DNA of 55,019 bases, taken from the NCBI GenBank assembly GCA_965205425.1, contig CBDBGZ010000002.1, positions 1 through 55,019 on the forward strand, read 5' to 3'. Made by a program: the position numbers and the translations under genes. The stretch is from Nitrosopumilus sp. (GTDB lineage Archaea; Thermoproteota; Nitrososphaeria; Nitrososphaerales; Nitrosopumilaceae). The notes beneath the pieces are model-generated. The model worked only from the letters and a program-made list of their open reading frames with translations. It was not told the origin of the DNA and did no database searches. Below, piece after piece: positions 46,177-55,019 of this stretch. Numbering within the stretch: position 1 is the first letter of the stretch; every line of letters begins with the position of its first letter.

Positions 46177-47526
46177 GTGGACACCTTTGGAAAAACACAA
46201 GCAAAAGTAATACCTCTAGATTTATCTGAAAACCAATTTCAAATTTACAATAAAATTTCAAGAAACTATTCACATTCATTTCTATTTGAATCATTAACAG
46301 GCCCAGAAGTTTTAGCTGAGACATCTGTAATGGGTTTTGATCCCAAAATAATTCTCAAAGGATATTCAGATAAAGTAGAAATTATCCAAAATGGAGAAAC
46401 ACAAATCATTCAAACCATAGATCCATTTGCAGAACTAAAAAAATTACTAGAGAAATCTGATGATCAAAGCTATCGGTATTTGGGAGGAGCAGTCGGAGTA
46501 GTTAACTATGATGCAATTAGATTGGTTGAAGAAATAAAAGATTCTCATAACTCACCACAGCCACTAATGGAATTTGGAATTTATGATGACGGGATTCTGT
46601 ACGATAAAATACATGAAAAGTTATTCTATTTTTATCACGATGAGAATAGGTTTGATAAATTTGTAATGGATAGCGTGGAGTTTGGAGAATTTCATGCAAG
46701 TGAAGTAACACCAAATATGGATAAAACAAAATATTCTGAAATAGTAAACAAGGCAAAAAAATACATTCATGATGGAGATATTTTCCAAGCAGTATTATCT
46801 AGAAAATTTGCATTTGATACAAATGGAGACAATCTAACATTATACAAAACACTAAGAAAATTAAATCCATCACCATACATGTATCATCTAAAACAAGATA
46901 CCAAAACAATAATTGGAGCATCCCCTGAAATGCTAGTTAGAATCACTGATGACAAAGTAGAGACATTTCCAATTGCAGGTACCAGAAAAATTACAGATGA
47001 TGAAAACAAAAACAAGGCATTGTCTGAAGAATTAATTCAGGATGAAAAAGAATTAGCCGAACATACAATGCTTGTAGATTTGGGAAGAAATGACATTGGT
47101 AGAGTTTGTAAATATGGAACTGTGCATCCAGAATCATTAATGGAGATAAAGCGATTTAGTCACGTTCAGCATATTGTAAGTCATGTTGTTGGTAATTTAG
47201 ATCCTGAAAATGACATGTTTGACGCATTTCAGGCAGTATTTCCAGCAGGAACAGTATCTGGAGCACCAAAAGTCAGAGCCATGGAGATTATTGATAAATT
47301 GGAAACAGAGGCAAGAGGGCCATATGCAGGAGCTGTAGGATATTTCTCATACAATGGATGCTGTGATTTTGCAATAGCAATTAGAAGCATATTCATTGAA
47401 AACAACAAAGGGTTCGTTCAGTCAGGTGCAGGCATAGTATCAGATTCTGTTGCAGAAAATGAATTCAAAGAAACTGAACACAAAGCAGGGGCCATGCTTC
47501 AAGCATTAAAGGAGGCATCAAATTGA
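46177..47526 (+). CDS. trpE: Anthranilate synthase component I
   Basis: [22 protein letters not shown] and GTVSGAPK motifs. Confidence 0.96.
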
Positions 47527-48119
47527 AATTTTTAATTATTGACAATTATGATTCATTCGTGTACAATATTGCACAGTATCTTGGAGAATTAGGAGTAGAA
47601 TGCGATGTGATTAGAAATGATAAAATCACATTACAGCAAATCAAAGAAAAAAAATATGATGCAATAATTATTTCTCCAGGGCCAGGTACTCCTGAAGACA
47701 AAAAATACTTTGGAGTATGTTCTGAAGTCATTAAAGATATGGGACCAAACGTTCCAATTCTAGGAGTATGTCTAGGACATCAAGGAATAATTGATGCATT
47801 TGGAGGTAAAGTCACCAATGCAGGGTGTGTAAGACATGGAAAGACAAGTCAAGTTGATCATAGTAATTCAAAATTATTTACAGATGTAAAGAATCCATTT
47901 CGAGCAACAAGATATCATAGTTTAGTAGGAGACAAAACAATAATCCCAGATGTGTTAGAGGTAACTGCAACTGCATCAGATGATGGAGAGATTATGGCAA
48001 TCCAACATAAAGAATATCTAATTCAGGGAGTACAATTTCACCCAGAATCCATTATGACAGAAGACGGAAAAAAGATTCTGGGGAATTTTATCAAACAAGT
48101 AAAGGAGAAACAAAAATGA
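47523..48119 (+). CDS. trpG: Anthranilate synthase component II
   Basis: IDNYDSF, SPGPG, GVCLGHQ and QFHPES motifs. Confidence 0.96.
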   Translation: MKFLIIDNYDSFVYNIAQYLGELGVECDVIRNDKITLQQIKEKKYDAIIISPGPGTPEDKKYFGVCSEVIKDMGPNVPILGVCLGHQGIIDAFGGKVTNAGCVRHGKTSQVDHSNSKLFTDVKNPFRATRYHSLVGDKTIIPDVLEVTATASDDGEIMAIQHKEYLIQGVQFHPESIMTEDGKKILGNFIKQVKEKQK

Positions 48120-49162
48120 TTTCAGAATTAATTTCAAAATTACAAGAAAAGACAGATCTCACATATGATGAAATGAATCAAGTAATGACAGATGTACTAT
48201 CAGGTAAAACAGATGATGTTCAAAATGCAGACTTTCTATCATCATTAGCAGAAAAAGGAGAAACAGATGATGAATTATTAGGAATGCTTGATAAAATGCA
48301 GGATTTCTCTCTCAAAGTAGAGGCCAAAAATCAAGGTCCAGTCATAGATATGTGTGGTACCGGAGGTGACAAACTCCAGACATTCAACATCTCCACTACA
48401 GCATCATTTGTGGTTGCTGCAGCTGGTGGAATTGTAGCAAAACATGGGAATCGCTCCAGTTCAGGAGTTTCTGGAAGTGCAGATATTTTTGAATATTTTG
48501 GATATGATTTGAATACAGAACCAGATAAAATCTCAGATACTTTACAAAAGCACAACATCTGTTTTATGTTTGCACAAAAATTCCATCCAGCAATGAAGCA
48601 TGTGTCAACAGCTAGAAAACAATTGAGAAAAAGAACCGCATTTAATCTTCTAGGACCACTATCAAATCCAGCTGGGGTAAAAAATCAACTAGTAGGAGTA
48701 TTCTCCACAGAATATCTAGACAGATTACCACTACTTCTAAAAAGAAAAGGAGCTGAAAATATAATGACGGTTCGTTCAGATGATGGAATGGATGAATTCT
48801 CTACAAGTGCTATAAATCGAGTTTGCATATTAAAAAATGATAAAGTATTGATGAACGCAATAGATCCAGAAGTAGTTGGATTGCATAAATCATCACTAGC
48901 AGATATTCAAATTAAGACAAAAGAAGAAGCAATCAAATCATTTGTTACAGTATTAAACAATACAGCAAATCAAGCAATGATTGAAACTACTGTGTTAAAT
49001 GCAGCTGGGGGTTTAATAGTTGCTAATATTTCTAAAAACTTTGAAGAAGCAGTAGAATTAGCATTAGACACAATAAAAAGTGGTAAAGCATTTTCATTGT
49101 TGGAAAAATTTGTTCAGGATACAGGAGACATTTCAAAATTAAAGGAGATGGATGATGGCTGA
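48116..49162 (+). CDS. trpD: Anthranilate phosphoribosyltransferase
   Basis: CGTGGD and KHGNRSSS motifs. Confidence 0.97.
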   Translation: MISELISKLQEKTDLTYDEMNQVMTDVLSGKTDDVQNADFLSSLAEKGETDDELLGMLDKMQDFSLKVEAKNQGPVIDMCGTGGDKLQTFNISTTASFVVAAAGGIVAKHGNRSSSGVSGSADIFEYFGYDLNTEPDKISDTLQKHNICFMFAQKFHPAMKHVSTARKQLRKRTAFNLLGPLSNPAGVKNQLVGVFSTEYLDRLPLLLKRKGAENIMTVRSDDGMDEFSTSAINRVCILKNDKVLMNAIDPEVVGLHKSSLADIQIKTKEEAIKSFVTVLNNTANQAMIETTVLNAAGGLIVANISKNFEEAVELALDTIKSGKAFSLLEKFVQDTGDISKLKEMDDG

Positions 49163-49931
49163 AAATATTTTACGAAAACTAGTGAATAATTCCCAAATGG
49201 CAATTGATGATGGAGTTTATGATGTAGATACAGATTTACAAAAATCAAGCAAAGACTTTATTCAAATTATCAACACAAATCCTCATCCAACATTACTTAC
49301 TGAAATAAAATTTTCATCACCATCATTAGGTAAAATCAAGACATTAACGGATCCGGCAAGGATTGCAAAACAAATGATTGCCGGAGGCTCAAAGGCACTG
49401 TCAGTTTTGACTCAACCACACCTGTTTCAAGGCTCACCAGAGTATTTCATGAAAGTACGAGAAGCAGTAGATGTACCTATGCTCATGAAAGACATCATGA
49501 TTGATAAGATACAGATTGATGCAGCAAAGAAAATAGGAGCAGATTACATGTTGGTAATCCAGTCTTTGTTTGATCAGAAATTCCTTTCAGATATTGATGA
49601 ATTCATAGGATATGGTCACAAGCAAGGATTGCAAATTTTACTTGAAGTACATACAAAACAAGAACTAGAAAATGCATTAAAAACAAAAGCTGATTTAATT
49701 GGAATAAATAACAGGAATCTAGATACATTAGAAATCGATATTAAAACCACAGAATCAATACTTTCAGGAGTAGAAATATCAAGACCCATTTTATCTGAAA
49801 GTGGAATAAACACTCCTAAGGACATTCAATATCTAAAAAAATACGGGGCTAATGCATTCTTGATAGGTTCAAGCATAATGAAAAGTGATAACATTGAAGA
49901 ACAAGTAAAAAAATTGGTGAGTGCATATTGA
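49152..49931 (+). CDS. trpC: Indole-3-glycerol-phosphate synthase
   Basis: [19 protein letters not shown] and SESGI motifs. Confidence 0.96.
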
Positions 49932-51118
49932 AATATCCTAAAAATGGTCGATTTGGAGAGTTTGGTGGAAAATATATTCCTGAAACACTAGTTCCAGCAG
50001 TTGAGGAATTAGAAGAAAATTATCTTAAATTCAAAAATGATAAAAAATTCAAAAAAGAACTAAATTATTATCTTAAAGTCTATGCCGGAAGACCAACTCC
50101 ATTATACTATGCAAAAAATTTGTCTGAAAAAATTGGCGGAGCTAAAATCTATCTCAAACGAGAAGACTTGCTTCATGGAGGAGCTCATAAAATAAACAAT
50201 ACACTAGGCCAAGCATTACTTGCAAAAAAAATGAACAAGAAAAGAATTATCGCAGAGACAGGTGCAGGACAACACGGAGTTGCAACTGCAATGGCATGTG
50301 CAGCACTTGGAATGAAAGCAGAAGTGTACATGGGGTACAGAGACACAATAAGACAAAAACAAAATGTATTTCGAATGAATATGCTCGGATGTGAAGTTCA
50401 TCCAGTAAAATCAGGCTCAAAAACACTCAAAGATGCAATTAATGAGGCAATTCGTGACTGGATAACAAATGTTGAGAGTACATATTATTTGCTAGGATCA
50501 GCAGTAGGGCCACACCCATACCCTGTAATGGTTAGAGATTTCCAAAGTGTAATTGGTAATGAAATAAAAGTACAAATGAAAAAAATTAACAATAAAACAC
50601 CAGATACAGTAATAGCATGCGTTGGTGGCGGTTCAAATGCAATTGGAACATTCTATCCATTAGTTGATTCAAATTCAGAAATTATAGGAGTAGAAGCTGC
50701 AGGTCACGGATTAAAATCAAAAATGCATTCAGCTACATTGTCTGCAGGAAGTAAAGGGATCTTACACGGTATGATGACATATTTGTTACAAGATAAGGAA
50801 GGACAAGTAACTGAAACTCACAGTATTTCAGCAGGATTAGATTATCCAGGAGTAGGTCCAGAGCACTCTTACTATAAAGACACTAAACGAGTAAAATATC
50901 ATGCAGCAACTGATGCAGAAGTGATTGAAGCATTTCTCACACTAACAAGAACAGAAGGAATCATTCCAGCTTTAGAATCATCGCATGCAATTGCTGAAGC
51001 AATGAAGGTTGCAAGAAAGAGTAAAAAATCAGAATCAATCGTAGTAACTCTTTCTGGAAGAGGAGACAAAGACATTGAAGAAGTACAAAATTATTTGAAT
51101 AAACATGACAAGAATTAA
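49928..51118 (+). CDS. trpB: Tryptophan synthase beta chain
   Basis: [17 protein letters not shown] and [11 protein letters not shown] motifs. Confidence 0.98.
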
Positions 51119-51905
51119 AGAAAAATTTGTAGAGTTGGAGGCAAAAAACCAAAAAGCTCTGATTTCATATATCATGGTAGGGTTTCCAAATGAAAAATCA
51201 ACAATCCCCACAGTAAGAGGGTTAGTAAAAGGAGGAGTAGACATTATTGAATTAGGATTTCCATTTTCTGACCCACTAGCAGATGGTCCTGTAATTCAAA
51301 ATGCAAGTACCACGTCTTTAGAAAAAGGTACCAAGATTGCAAAGTTTTTCACACTTGTAAAAAAAATACGAAAGGAAACAGATGTTCCACTAATCTTAAT
51401 GACGTATACCAATATTTTGTATCATAAAGGGTATGGAAAATTTATTCTTGAAGCTAAAAAAGCAGGAATTGACGGATTTATCCTACCAGATATGTCCATT
51501 GAAGAATCAAAAGAATATCTAAAAGCTGCTAAAAACAATGCAGATACAATATTTTTGATTTCTCCAAATACAAGTAATAAAAGAATTCAAAAAATAGTCA
51601 AAGCATCATCAGGATTTTTGTATCTTGTTGCAGTGTTTGGAACAACAGGAATAAAAACAGGGATTAAAAAATACACTCTGGATGCAATCAAACAAGTCAA
51701 AAAACAAACCAAAGGAAAAATTCCAATAGGGATTGGGTTTGGAATTTCAACACCAGAGGATGTAAAAAAATACATCAAAGCAGGAGCAGATGCAGTAATT
51801 GTTGGAAGTGCATATTTAAAATTAATTGAAAAGACTCCTCAAAACAAACTTGAATCAAAGATTGCATCGTTTACAAAAAGTCTCAAAAAACAAACTGTAC
51901 TCTAA
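51105..51905 (+). CDS. trpA: Tryptophan synthase alpha chain
   Basis: [17 protein letters not shown] and GFGIS motifs. Confidence 0.98.
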
Positions 51906-52302: not shown

Positions 52303-53261
52303 TAGTTTAGGCATATAAATTCTGAATAAACTGTCAAGTATTTTAACCCAAAAGATCTAGATCGTAGAATCAATTCATGAAACCATGTCAAAGAGTACAA
52401 GACAATCCAAGGTTTCCTCTGGGAATCAATTCATGAAAGGTACAAGCATTAATTTTTTGAGAAAAGCATGTAAAAATGAACGTAATGCAAAAGCAAAGAT
52501 AAGACTAAAGGCTGCAATTTTACGCAAACAAGACATGAGATATTCTCAAATATGCATCAGTCTTGATATCATACCATCAACTCTTAGTAATTGGTTAAAC
52601 CAAATGAACCGAGAGGGAATATCTGCATCACGCCGCAAGGAATATTCTGGCTCTAGATGTTTCTTAAATAAAAAACAACTAGTGTCATTAAGAGATGATC
52701 TGATTTCAGGTCCAGAAAAGTTTGGATTTAACCAATTCATGTGGAGTACAAGAATGGTAATTACACATGTGAATAAAAAATACAACACACTATACTCTGC
52801 AAGAGGAATGCGTGAATTGCTGCACAGAATTGGATTCTCATCTAAAAAACCACGTCCCACACATCATAAATCAGCCTTAAAAGAGGAACAAACCCGTTTT
52901 AAAAAAACGCAAAAAGGAGTATCAAAAAATATTCCAAATTGGGATACACCACACTATGTCTGGATGAGTCAACAAACAAGATAGCTCCAAATATCAAAAA
53001 AGGCTGGTATCTAAAAGGAAAAAATACACAAACCAAAATCAACTATACTCGAGAAAAGTTTCAATCATTTGGCGCATTGGGCAATAACGATGTATTTTTT
53101 TGCAGGTTCTATGATAAATCAAACACAGACTCATTTCTTGATTTTTTAGAATTACTGCAAAAACAATTTGGCAAGAAACTGTTATTATTTGCAGACAATG
53201 CATCATACCACAAAAGTGTTAGAGTAAAAGAATTTCTCAAAGCACCAAAAAATAAAGGTAA
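52303..53261 (+). mobile_element. IS630-family element (two ORFs, -1 frameshift), interrupted by IS110; 3' part lost
   Basis: TA|TAG left end; ORF A 52385-52984 (HTH; KKPRP); slippery TTTTAAAAAAAC at 52897-52908; ORF B with LDE and DNASYH; the PELNPIE-type third catalytic motif is absent. Confidence 0.88.
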
Positions 53262-53375
53262 CCATATGTGAATAAACAACGAAATTTAGATGGTACTGCT
53301 GATTCTATAGTTTCTAAAAGATACACCTCCAAGAAAAAACCAAAGAAAATCATTAGGACTAGAAAGACAAAACCC

Positions 53376-54377
53376 ATGACCTATGTCGGAATTGATTTGC
53401 ACAAAGAATTCTTACAGGTCGAAACAATGGATGATAAAGGACATACATTATTCAATGAAAAAATTACAAACACCAGAGGGGATATCAAAAAAGCATTTTC
53501 TGCAATCCCAAAAAACTCAAAATGTGTAATGGAATCATCATCTGTCTGGTATGGCGTGTTTAGGTTTCTGCGAGACGAACTAGGATTTGATGTAATACTA
53601 TCAAACCCATATCACACAAAAGCAATTGCAGCATCAAAGAAAAAAACTGACAAGATTGATGCTCACATCTTGGCAGATTTGCTAAGAGGAGGATACATCT
53701 CATCTTGTCATGTACCAGAAAAAGATACCGTGCAAACAAGACAACTGGTGAGATATAGAACCAAACTAGTCCGCAACAGGACAAGGATGAAAAATTTGAT
53801 TCACAGTATAACCTTACAAAATGCAATCAAGATACCAGGAACTGCATTTTCTGATTCATATGTGCACAAACTGTTGGGATTAGATGACTATCGAATAGAT
53901 GGATATCTCAAGATGATAATATCAATCAATGATAGAATCGCAGAGTCAGACATGAGAATCAAGGATGCTCTAAAACATGATTCTAACGCACAACTCTTAG
54001 AATCAATACCTGGTGTTGGAAGATTTACTGCATTAACCATATCCTCTGAAATTGACAATATCGAAAGATTTTCAGATTCTCACAAACTGTGTTCATATGC
54101 AGGAATTGTACCATCGGTGAGAAACTCAGCTGACACCATACGCCATGGGTCCATAACAAGAAGAGGAAGTAGCATGTTACGCTGGGTTCTGGTGGAGGCA
54201 GTACATTCTCATGTAAGATATGCAAAAAACAGCACCATTACAAATTTTTACAAACGTCTTGCAAAAAAGAGGGGGACATCAAAAGCTGCAGTGGCAGCAG
54301 CATCCAAACTGTTGAGAATAATTTACTGGATGTTAAAAAACAACATGACATTTTACCAGTGCATCAAAAATGCATAA
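53376..54377 (+). CDS. IS110 DEDD recombinase (frame open from 53268; ATG 53376 precedes the RuvC domain)
   Basis: YVGIDLHK, MES, KTDKIDA, SIPGVG and YAGIVPSVRNSA motifs. Confidence 0.96.
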   Translation: MTYVGIDLHKEFLQVETMDDKGHTLFNEKITNTRGDIKKAFSAIPKNSKCVMESSSVWYGVFRFLRDELGFDVILSNPYHTKAIAASKKKTDKIDAHILADLLRGGYISSCHVPEKDTVQTRQLVRYRTKLVRNRTRMKNLIHSITLQNAIKIPGTAFSDSYVHKLLGLDDYRIDGYLKMIISINDRIAESDMRIKDALKHDSNAQLLESIPGVGRFTALTISSEIDNIERFSDSHKLCSYAGIVPSVRNSADTIRHGSITRRGSSMLRWVLVEAVHSHVRYAKNSTITNFYKRLAKKRGTSKAAVAAASKLLRIIYWMLKNNMTFYQCIKNA

Positions 54378-54520: not shown

Positions 54521-54916
54521 TTGAAAATGAATGGGATCATCTCTAGCGGTAGCCATTCTCATGTGTTGCAAAAGAGTGCAAATGTTTTTAAAGATTTCAC
54601 ATAGATATGTGTTTAGGTCACGCCTAGATTAAACCGAATAATTTAGATCAGAGAAGAATTTTCAAGAAATAATGGACTCTAAACCGTGCAAAAACTGTGA
54701 TGATTTGGCAAGAAAAAACATCGAATTGGAAATCAAAATCATGGAATCTTTAACCTAGCCCCAAACAATGAGGGACAATCTGAGATATTTGCATCGTTTA
54801 ACTTTTAATTCTAGATTTTTAGAGCATTTTCAAAAATAAAAAAAGGCTAGTTCAAAGGCGAACTAACTCGACTGCCAATCACACTTTATTGTATTGTTTT
54901 CTAATTAAACTTTATG

Positions 54917-54987
54917 TGGACTGGCTGGGAATCGAACCCAGACCTCTCAATTGACAGTCGAGAACTCGACCTTCAAGCTACCAGCCC
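54917..54987 (-). tRNA. Atypical tRNA: GUC (Asp) anticodon on a tRNA-Ala-type acceptor stem
   Basis: GGGCTGG TA GCTT GAAGGTC GAGT T CTCGA CTGTCAA TTGAG AGGT CTGGG TTCGATT CCCAG CCAGTCC A; G3·U70 and A73. Confidence 0.85.
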
Positions 54988-55019
54988 ACAAAACATATTA
55001 AAAAATACAAAGTAATAAT

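What the first reader, a model, noticed from the sequence alone, without database searches (positions are those of the whole stretch)
54917..54987. tRNA with alanine identity elements but an aspartate anticodon
Seen: the acceptor GGGCTGG/CCAGTCC-A gives G1-C72, G2-C71, G3·U70 and discriminator A73. The anticodon loop CU-GUC-AA reads Asp. All four stems pair, but the D-loop is short with G at position 14 and the variable loop is 4 nt. Established: G3·U70 (with A73) is the major AlaRS determinant, AlaRS ignores the anticodon, and AspRS prefers G73. Inference: this RNA would be charged with Ala and could read GAC/GAU. That would mean Asp-to-Ala mistranslation, or a non-ribosomal alanyl donor or decoy tRNA. 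A decayed tRNA-Ala(GGC) with a single G35U change, or a sequencing error, is the mundane alternative.
Basis: partly seen in the sequence, partly recalled or inferred. Interest (0 to 1): 0.8.

Follow-up and report, generated by a model that had tools for sequence, protein, structure and literature searches.

The report
Miscoding tRNA with antisense antidote RNA
This marine archaeon carries a transfer RNA built to insert alanine where aspartate is encoded, right beside a tiny RNA gene that mirrors that tRNA's decoding arm. The same pairing recurs in many archaea and bacteria, which points to an apparently undescribed all-RNA poison-and-antidote module.

Summary
The tRNA is real: G1-C72, G2-C71, G3·U70, A73, anticodon GUC. 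It is not a sequencing error, not a one-step tRNA-Ala mutant and not a code change; canonical tRNA-Asp and three tRNA-Ala are present.

About 35 nt downstream lies a ~47-nt unit with a TATA-like box, a 15-nt stretch antisense to this tRNA's own anticodon arm, and a terminator hairpin whose loop pairs with its D-loop.

All 7 alanine-identity, non-alanine-anticodon tRNAs of this genome have such a partner; none of the other 46 tRNAs does. So do 41 of 45 archaeal relatives (Asp, Phe, Leu, Glu, Ile anticodons) and 87 of 108 GUC relatives from metagenomes, most behind a -35 promoter motif. The partner tracks each anticodon change. Orphan partners occur, and no protein partner was found.

Best reading (~0.6): an RNA-only toxin-antitoxin module, with a mistranslating tRNA silenced by a cognate anti-tRNA. 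Expression, charging and toxicity are untested. Ten literature searches found no description, and look-ups in this scan found only a related serine-type tRNA family in this genome.

The parts
54917..54987 (-). tRNA with alanine identity (G1-C72, G2-C71, G3·U70, A73) and Asp anticodon GUC; proposed toxin
   Evidence: identical copy in L317
54953..54955 (-). anticodon GUC, with C32, U33, A37, A38 (lacks the Asp determinants C38 and G73)
   Evidence: determinants from PMC9976931 passages
54902..54909 (-). TATA-like box, about 25 nt before the antisense segment; putative promoter of the small RNA
   Evidence: conserved in alignment A1; shifts together with the antisense segment in L012; archaeal TATA spacing is recalled
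54838..54884 (-). putative ~47-nt anti-tRNA small RNA (proposed antitoxin); 5' end is an estimate
   Evidence: no Rfam family
54867..54881 (-). 15-nt segment antisense to the anticodon arm (12 Watson-Crick + 3 G·U pairs, one G·U at U35)
   Evidence: L317 has the Watson-Crick base opposite U35
54846..54867 (-). terminator-like hairpin; its loop and 3' arm are complementary to the tRNA D-loop, D-stem and 5' acceptor strand
   Evidence: terminator-like site
54838..54844 (-). U-tract ending the small RNA
54988..55019 (-). upstream region, cut by the contig end; homologous to the back-to-back promoter region of the divergent subfamily (TATA-like 55012-55019 for the tRNA, 54996-55003 on the other strand)
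   Evidence: promoter function inferred
53268..54377 (+). IS110-family transposase (neighbour, not part of the module)
52385..53271 (+). split HTH + DDE_3 transposase (neighbour)
54579..54740 (.). multi-copy non-coding repeat, probably an IS end or MITE (neighbour)

Best explanation
A ~160-nt, protein-free toxin-antitoxin cassette of two RNAs. (1) The tRNA is processed and charged with alanine by the host's single AlaRS through G3·U70/A73, and reads GAC/GAU, putting Ala at Asp codons and poisoning the proteome [inferred]. (2) A separately promoted ~47-nt RNA pairs with the anticodon loop and the D-loop, invades the weak anticodon stem and zips along the tRNA's 5' half, unfolding it so it cannot mature, be charged or decode [complementarity, specificity and covariation shown; binding inferred]. 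In this tandem arrangement a read-through precursor would also fold on itself and be inert. (3) If the presumably short-lived small RNA is no longer made (loss of the DNA, transcription shut-off by a virus, stress), the stable tRNA is released and growth stops, giving addiction to the surrounding mobile DNA or abortive infection [inferred by analogy with type I/VIII systems].
For: Own genome: 7 of 7 G3·U70/A73 non-Ala tRNAs have an 11-16 Watson-Crick antisense run over the anticodon within 200 nt, versus 0 of 46 other tRNAs. Archaeal relatives: 41 of 45. Metagenome GUC relatives: 87 of 108. Swapped-partner controls: 6 of 404, 28 of 606 and 92 of 840. Covariation: 15 of 25 pairs change on both sides, 90.7% of cells pair, 0 of 500 shuffles reach this, slid controls 21-43%. 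Computed binding: cognate -19.0 vs non-cognate -1.8 kcal/mol; 36 of 41 small RNAs bind their own tRNA best; the window's RNA gives -18.0 with its neighbour, -7.8 with the next best and -5.6 with canonical tRNA-Asp among 53 tRNAs. In tandem, divergent and convergent layouts the promoter and terminator face so that the antisense strand is made. TTGAC precedes 73 of 88 segments versus 23 of 1723 control windows. Searches that left the acceptor free recovered only G3·U70/A73 tRNAs: 5 of 5 and 3 of 3. The TA-like asymmetry is seen: 6 of 10 small-RNA hits lack a cognate tRNA, and L446 has a damaged tRNA with an intact partner. Occurrence is patchy (12 true of 19 matching genomes among 401) and IS-adjacent (7 of 7 within 1.5 kb, versus 15 of 41 canonical tRNAs and 35% of random sites). 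Archaeal anticodons are confined to Phe, Asp, Leu, Glu and Ile. Miscoding allo-tRNAs and tRNA-ProX are toxic in E. coli (PMC5389517, PMC10404621).
Against: There are no expression, charging, proteomic or toxicity data. GUC is a strong AspRS determinant, strongest in bacteria, and the window tRNA also has G10·U25 (an Asp element in yeast, PMC9976931), so part or all may be aspartylated and harmless. The window tRNA has G14/C21 instead of A14/A21, and its minimum-energy fold is not a cloverleaf; some relatives have C33. Some intact-looking tRNAs have no partner nearby: 4 of 45 archaeal, 21 of 108 metagenome, and most viral hits (5 of 93 positive; 1 of 6). No consistent defence-gene or mobile-element context beyond transposases. 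The G·U-over-A·C bias is significant in archaea (29 vs 10) but not in bacteria (35 vs 25). Family members are related, so counts and shuffles overstate independence. The small RNA's own fold is not significant (z -1.0).
Confidence: 0.6

Rival explanations
1. Switchable, beneficial mistranslation: the same two RNAs, but the small RNA is a rheostat that lets low-level Asp-to-Ala (or Phe/Leu-to-Ala) error through under stress, helping the cell or corrupting viral proteins without arresting growth.
For: tRNA-ProN raised carbenicillin tolerance in E. coli (PMC10404621 passages). Attenuating features (G14/C21, C33 in some members, weak anticodon stems). Dedicated promoter for the small RNA.
Against: Patchy distribution, up to seven modules with different anticodons in one assembly, nested replacement of one module by another and orphan small RNAs look like selfish turnover, not a conserved stress pathway. 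No regulator gene is linked.
Confidence: 0.16
2. Non-ribosomal alanyl donor or decoy: the small RNA permanently masks the anticodon so the tRNA carries Ala for another pathway or soaks up anticodon nucleases.
For: The anticodon loop is covered in every positive case, by the way the test is defined. Alanine identity is strictly kept.
Against: The archaeal small RNA also pairs with the D-arm and the 5' acceptor strand, which would destroy the AlaRS site. No transferase or other partner gene is shared. A decoy would not need alanine identity, and a donor would not need a changing sense anticodon.
Confidence: 0.08
3. The small RNA is a guide for editing, modification or cleavage of the anticodon arm by a host enzyme, for example converting the anticodon or marking the tRNA for decay.
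For: 10-20 nt complementarity centred on the anticodon is guide-like.
Against: No box C/D or H/ACA-type Rfam match. The same design occurs in bacteria, which lack those guide systems (recalled). No fixed mismatch at one target base: L317 and L002 are fully Watson-Crick across the anticodon.
Confidence: 0.07
4. A spare tRNA-Asp that is aspartylated through its anticodon, with the antisense RNA only limiting its level.
For: Intact G34-U35-C36 and G10·U25 (PMC9976931). GUC is the commonest anticodon among the bacterial hits.
Against: G73 and C38 are absent, canonical tRNA-Asp is present, the same alanine acceptor carries Phe, Leu, Glu and Ile anticodons in paralogues, and no canonical tRNA of the genome has a partner.
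Confidence: 0.05
5. DNA-level artefact: a decaying tRNA with a partial duplicate kept alike by template switching or gene conversion, with no RNA function.
For: The small RNA is evidently derived from a copy of the tRNA's 5' half. A few pattern positives (L185, L057) are plain tRNA fragments. The G·U bias is not significant in bacteria.
Against: Own promoter and terminator always face the antisense way, whether the DNA repeat is direct or inverted. G·U excess in archaea (29 vs 10). Intact stems with compensatory changes. Same design in two domains.
Confidence: 0.04

Closest known systems
Type VIII toxin-antitoxin systems (creTA; SdsR-RyeA), as defined in TADB 3.0 (PMC10767807, passages read)
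   Same: Toxin and antitoxin are both RNAs, adjacent, on the same or opposite strands.
   Different: Here the proposed toxin is a full cloverleaf tRNA acting by miscoding, and the antitoxin pairs directly with it. CreA needs CRISPR Cascade to repress creT transcription (abstract starts of PMC9458426 and PMC10097628). SdsR and RyeA overlap on opposite strands, whereas these genes do not overlap. Toxicity is untested here.
Allo-tRNAs (Mukai et al., PMC5389517; parts 2-3 of 5 and passages read)
   Same: Ser or Ala identity with non-cognate anticodons, GUC among the commonest; miscode and kill E. coli; often near TA genes and transposons; Acidobacteria prominent.
   Different: Allo-tRNAs have 8/4 or 9/3 acceptor branches and a long V-arm and are bacterial. 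These are canonical 7/5 short-arm tRNAs in archaea and bacteria. The main text has no 'antisense' or 'complementary'. Its supplement was not read.
tRNA-ProX family (PMC10404621, passages read)
   Same: Natural dual-identity tRNAs that mistranslate, are toxic in E. coli and are sporadically distributed.
   Different: Pro identity, encoded with a dedicated ProRSx, Actinomycetes only; 'antisense' and 'antitoxin' do not occur in the text. This module has no synthetase and has a cognate small RNA.
Type I TA / cis-encoded antisense RNAs such as hok/Sok (search listing; mechanism recalled)
   Same: Short terminator-ended antisense RNA with its own promoter beside its target.
   Different: The target is a tRNA, not a toxin mRNA, and no protein is involved.
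Engineered tRNA-Ala anticodon variants in yeast (10.1101/2022.11.23.517754; abstract, section 18 and passages read)
   Same: 52 of 57 variants mistranslated and 36 of 60 slowed growth; G34 variants of the two-codon boxes, including Asp and Phe, were the more severe.
   Different: Synthetic, eukaryotic, no natural inhibitor.

Membership tests
tRNA (RF00005) | Cloverleaf scoring above the Rfam cut-off | tested here: met
   57.4 bits vs 29; ARAGORN
Alanine-identity tRNA | G1-C72, G2-C71, G3·U70, A73 | tested here: met
   features from PMC9976931
Alanine-identity tRNA | Charged with Ala by AlaRS | not testable with these tools
   one intact AlaRS with editing domain is present; charging not measured
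Canonical tRNA-Asp | G34, U35, C36 | tested here: met
Canonical tRNA-Asp | G73 and C38 | tested here: not met
   A73 and A38; determinants
Point mutant of host tRNA-Ala(GGC) | Near-identity to a host tRNA-Ala | tested here: not met
   27-31 differences
Codon reassignment | Asp codons align with Ala in conserved proteins; canonical tRNA-Asp lost | tested here: not met
   14 of 14 Asp in TrpB align with Asp in the best PDB match (one protein only); canonical tRNA-Asp present
Allo-tRNA | 8/4 or 9/3 acceptor branch and long variable arm | tested here: not met
   7/5 structure, 4-nt variable loop
tRNA-ProX-type | Pro identity and adjacent dedicated synthetase | tested here: not met
   Ala identity; no shared synthetase neighbour; one AlaRS in the genome
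Type VIII toxin-antitoxin | Two adjacent RNA genes, no protein toxin | tested here: met
   (gene anatomy only; transcription not shown)
Type VIII toxin-antitoxin | Antitoxin is specific for its cognate toxin | tested here: met
   computational only: covariation, cofolding
Type VIII toxin-antitoxin | Toxin RNA inhibits growth and antitoxin RNA rescues | not testable with these tools
   needs expression experiments
Type VIII toxin-antitoxin | Both RNAs are expressed; antitoxin is less stable | not testable with these tools
   no RNA run was available to lay
creTA | CRISPR-repeat-like antitoxin beside cas genes | tested here: not met
   no cas operon among scanned neighbours (the one Cas12f-like hit is a TnpB)
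Archaeal box C/D or H/ACA guide RNA | Rfam match or box motifs | tested here: not met
   only two sub-threshold chance hits

The most novel reading that the evidence does not exclude
A widespread class of RNA-only toxin-antitoxin modules in archaea and bacteria, in which the toxin is a deliberately miscoding tRNA (alanine on Asp, Phe, Leu, Glu or Ile codons) and the antitoxin is a co-evolving anti-tRNA small RNA that covers its anticodon. Release of the tRNA corrupts the genetic code on demand, for addiction or antiviral abortive infection. New specificities arise by matched changes in the anticodon arm and the small RNA.
Probability: 0.6. Interest if true: 0.96.

Novelty: categorically new. 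Interest (0 to 1): 0.92.

Why it matters
It would be a toxin-antitoxin system whose toxin is a tRNA and whose weapon is the genetic code itself, and it would add to the two experimentally validated RNA-RNA systems listed in TADB 3.0. It offers an explanation of why harmful miscoding tRNAs persist in genomes, a question left open for allo-tRNAs and tRNA-ProX. It shows natural sequence-specific inactivation of one tRNA by a small RNA. At ~160 nt, needing only host AlaRS, it is directly testable in laboratory strains and could serve as a tunable mistranslation or kill switch. Standard annotation hides it by calling these genes tRNA-Asp, -Phe or -Leu.

Tried and rejected
Sequencing error: rejected. 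Single G35U change of tRNA-Ala(GGC): rejected. Asp-to-Ala codon reassignment: rejected on one protein and the presence of canonical tRNA-Asp. Small RNA aimed at host tRNA-Asp or another host tRNA: rejected by cofolding against 53 tRNAs.

Expression: no RNA holder listed, so no statement either way. X5 did not cover the gene.

Whole-molecule RNAduplex energies over 400-nt flanks separated the family from canonical tRNAs only weakly, so I used contiguous and fixed-register pairing and cofolding instead. The serine-type GAA tRNAs and two other odd tRNAs of this genome have no adjacent antisense, and genome-wide 12-mer complements gave only scattered hits.

Protein partner: none shared among 81, 149, 120 and 66 proteins scanned. 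These were 77 of 80 ORFs plus 4 window ORFs, 149 of 182, 111 of 147 plus 9 others, and a 66-protein subset. No orphan small RNA was found in the own genome with two motifs. Rfam has no family for the small RNA.

Pattern slips: the pattern was off by one and caught only longer variable loops, and that was mis-set. In one search, 7 of 19 matching genomes were dropped: 4 canonical Ala(UGC) read in a shifted frame and 3 non-family. In one search, three AAG anticodons were printed as TAA through a register slip and are counted as AAG. No phylogenetic independence test was run.

Full report
OBSERVATION. The gene is as described, on the minus strand at 54917-54987 (ARAGORN; Rfam 57.4 bits): G1-C72, G2-C71, G3·U70, A73, loop CU-GUC-AA, G14, 4-nt variable loop, no encoded CCA. 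The window is contig C2 of a 2.2-Mb assembly and ends 32 nt upstream of the gene. The genus is Nitrosopumilus, judged from record titles of same-genus genomes. Contigs from three public runs of two studies match the gene and its downstream 80 nt without a difference; a fourth run does not cover it. Metagenome contig L317 has the identical tRNA. The assembly has a canonical tRNA-Asp, tRNA-Ala GGC/UGC/CGC and one intact AlaRS. All 14 Asp residues of the window's TrpB align with Asp in its best PDB match. The tRNA differs from the host tRNA-Ala genes at 27-31 positions. Sequencing error, a single G35U change and codon reassignment are therefore rejected.

A FAMILY. The assembly holds seven tRNAs with G1, G2, G3·U70 and A73 but non-Ala anticodons: three GUC, two AAG, two GAA. 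Contamination is 5.23% and some core tRNAs are duplicated with 90-95% identical flanks, so the seven may come from two strains. Pattern searches found relatives in 7 of 151 and 13 of 130 genomes of the genus (two partial patterns) and in 19 of 401 genomes of the order. Of those 19, 12 are true family members, all in the window's family. These are lower bounds. Among 41 archaeal modules the anticodons are GAA 13, GUC 10, AAG 9, CAG 3, CUC 2, GAG 2, AUC 1, GAU 1 (three AAG corrected by hand). A search for G35 non-Ala anticodons in 218 genomes gave 3 hits, all shifted readings of GAA/GAG members.

THE PARTNER. Thirty-six bases downstream of the window tRNA begins a 15-nt stretch antisense to its anticodon arm (54881-54867; 12 Watson-Crick, 3 G·U). 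It is followed by a terminator-like hairpin (54867-54846) and a U-tract, and preceded by a TATA-like box (54909-54902). The hairpin loop and 3' arm are complementary to the D-loop and 5' acceptor strand, so the ~47-nt RNA mirrors tRNA positions 1-41. In this genome 7 of 7 family tRNAs have a run of at least 11 Watson-Crick pairs over the anticodon within 200 nt; 0 of 46 other tRNAs do. In the first pooled set the test was met by 22 of 26 Nitrosopumilus, 29 of 103 GTDB and 5 of 93 viral pattern hits, many of the latter not being intact tRNAs. Among fully paired GUC hits it was 24 of 32. It was met by 15 of 17 further hits from the order-wide scan, 41 of 45 archaeal tRNAs with a fixed-register test, and 87 of 108 distinct GUC tRNAs from metagenomes (47 different anticodon arms among the 88 positives including one viral). 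Swapping partners gives 6 of 404 (different anticodon), 28 of 606 and 92 of 840 (same anticodon, different arm). A few positives are mere tRNA fragments (L185, L057).

IT BEHAVES AS AN RNA. On a MAFFT alignment of ten tandem modules, 90.7% of cells pair and 15 of 25 pairs show changes on both sides; 0 of 500 shuffles reach this and slid registers give 21-43%. The structure was derived from these related sequences and two rows are misaligned, so this is not a probability. Paralogues within one genome that switch anticodon switch the partner in step (G489: AAG, GAA, GAG; G000 C4: AAG, GAA). The partner lies downstream on the same strand, upstream and divergent, or convergent, and each time its promoter and terminator face so that the antisense strand is made. 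In bacteria TTGAC precedes 73 of 88 segments, against 23 of 1723 control windows, and strong terminator hairpins follow. Mismatches favour G·U over A·C in archaea (29 vs 10, p = 0.003, not independent) but not in bacteria (35 vs 25). The window itself has G·U opposite U35 where L317 has A-U. Computed binding is -19.0 kcal/mol for cognate and -1.8 for non-cognate pairs, and 36 of 41 small RNAs prefer their own tRNA. The window's RNA gives -18.0 with its neighbour and -5.6 with canonical tRNA-Asp. A read-through transcript of tRNA plus partner folds into one hairpin (-55.2, z -5.6) that destroys the cloverleaf.

IDENTITY IS NOT AN ARTEFACT OF MY PATTERNS. Searching from the small-RNA side gave 10 hits in 7 of 89 genomes. 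The five adjacent tRNAs all have G3·U70/A73, and four are cognate. Six hits lack a cognate tRNA: three are intact anti-GUC units whose tRNA is broken or replaced, one sits behind a non-cognate AAG tRNA, and two are truncated or doubtful. A search with the acceptor left free in 351 genomes of an acidobacterial class gave 3 hits, all G3·U70/A73, one with a damaged D-arm but intact partner. Canonical tRNA-Asp coexists in the carriers checked (4 of 5 genomes show it).

CONTEXT. No protein family other than transposases recurs beside the modules. Isolated neighbours include a Fic protein, an MqsA-type pair, a phage integrase and VirB4-like ATPases. All 7 modules of this genome lie within 1.5 kb of IS-like sequence, versus 15 of 41 canonical tRNAs and 35% of random sites. 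In L317 the window's module sits between the orphaned small RNA and the 3' remnant of an AAG module, so modules appear to replace one another.

MECHANISM. Shown: gene anatomy, specificity, covariation, distribution. Inferred: transcription, alanylation, decoding, toxicity, role. G3·U70 is the major, conserved AlaRS determinant, and G73, the anticodon and C38 determine Asp identity (PMC9976931 passages). The tRNA lacks G73 and C38, so Ala charging is likely, although competition from AspRS through GUC is a real caveat. Asp codons are 5.9% of codons in long ORFs here. In yeast 52 of 57 tRNA-Ala anticodon variants mistranslated (10.1101/2022.11.23.517754). Allo-tRNAs and tRNA-ProX are toxic in E. 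coli. A harmful tRNA with a dedicated, co-evolving antisense RNA, patchy spread and antitoxin-only remnants is best read as an RNA-RNA toxin-antitoxin module (0.6). Rivals: regulated mistranslation (0.16), masked alanyl donor or decoy (0.08), guide RNA (0.07), spare tRNA-Asp (0.05), DNA-level duplication (0.04). I put about 0.9 on the small RNA being a real cognate inhibitor whatever the tRNA's purpose.

COMPARISON AND NOVELTY. It works like a type VIII TA system, but membership needs toxicity and rescue, which are untested. The two validated type VIII systems are creTA and SdsR-RyeA (PMC10767807). It is not an allo-tRNA (7/5 fold, short arm) and not tRNA-ProX. Ten searches of the paper library listed no paper describing a miscoding tRNA with a cognate antisense RNA. 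'Antisense' does not occur in the main text of PMC5389517, PMC7609411, PMC10404621 or PMC11415595. The library lacks most subscription journals, and no supplement was read; the allo-tRNA loci in the supplement of PMC5389517 may bear on this. What I saw of each paper: PMC5389517, parts 2-3 of 5 and passages; the bioRxiv tRNA-Ala paper, abstract, section 18 and passages; PMC9976931, PMC10767807, PMC11415595, PMC10404621 and PMC7609411, passages; all others, listings only. Earlier notes of this scan: nothing by sequence; a serine-type GAA family in the same genome, which lacks an adjacent partner by my test; and cyanophage small RNAs antisense to a host tRNA-Val, a different arrangement.

VERDICT. 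A real, conserved two-RNA module found in both prokaryotic domains, not found described, with a clear and cheap decisive experiment. Interest 0.92.

Noticed in passing
No adjacent antisense RNA found; one lies about 430 nt from a GUC module.
   Followed up: partly
G000 C9:356124-356210(-) and C9:1042184-1042268(+): Two more odd long-arm tRNA-like genes (called Arg-CCT and Gly-ACC by ARAGORN), without an adjacent antisense.
   Followed up: no
L317 (Ga0233439_10004408), around the tRNA: The window's GUC module is nested inside an AAG module: an orphan anti-AAG RNA lies upstream and the 3' half of the AAG tRNA downstream, suggesting modules replace one another by recombination.
   Followed up: partly
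L158, L194, L195, L242, L248, L253: A fourth layout (Patescibacteria among the labelled records): the anti-anticodon segment plus an AU-rich terminator lies 65-95 nt upstream on the same strand, possibly an attenuated leader.
   Followed up: no
L163, L200: G3·U70 tRNAs without an antisense partner are instead flanked by long inverted repeats that would enclose the tRNA in a stem.
   Followed up: no
G000 C9:254430, C9:711261; L302, L456, L457: Family members with C33 instead of U33, possibly attenuated; missed by U33-based patterns.
   Followed up: partly
L015 (G036:C2:457938), L006 (G014:C1:1455864): L015 has lost its upstream promoter and small RNA, apparently to an insertion; L006 is a decayed copy of the window's tRNA lacking the D-arm and the partner.
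   Followed up: partly
G000 C4/C5, C4/C6, C4/C8, C5/C9, C4/C9: Five core tRNAs (Leu-CAA, Tyr, Thr-TGT, Ser-TGA, Glu-CTC) occur twice, three of them with 90-95% identical flanks of 1-3 kb; possible strain mixture or segmental duplication.
   Followed up: partly
window 46177-51905 (+) and 54579-54740: A run of tryptophan-synthesis genes (TrpB confirmed; the others named from recalled similarity), and a multi-copy non-coding repeat. About 10% of the assembly is IS-like.
   Followed up: no
viral loci L037-L155: Many viral G3·U70/A73 tRNA-like genes carry diverse anticodons (CUA, UAG, UAA, AUG, AUA) and no antisense partner; possibly suppressor or miscoding phage tRNAs of another kind.
   Followed up: no
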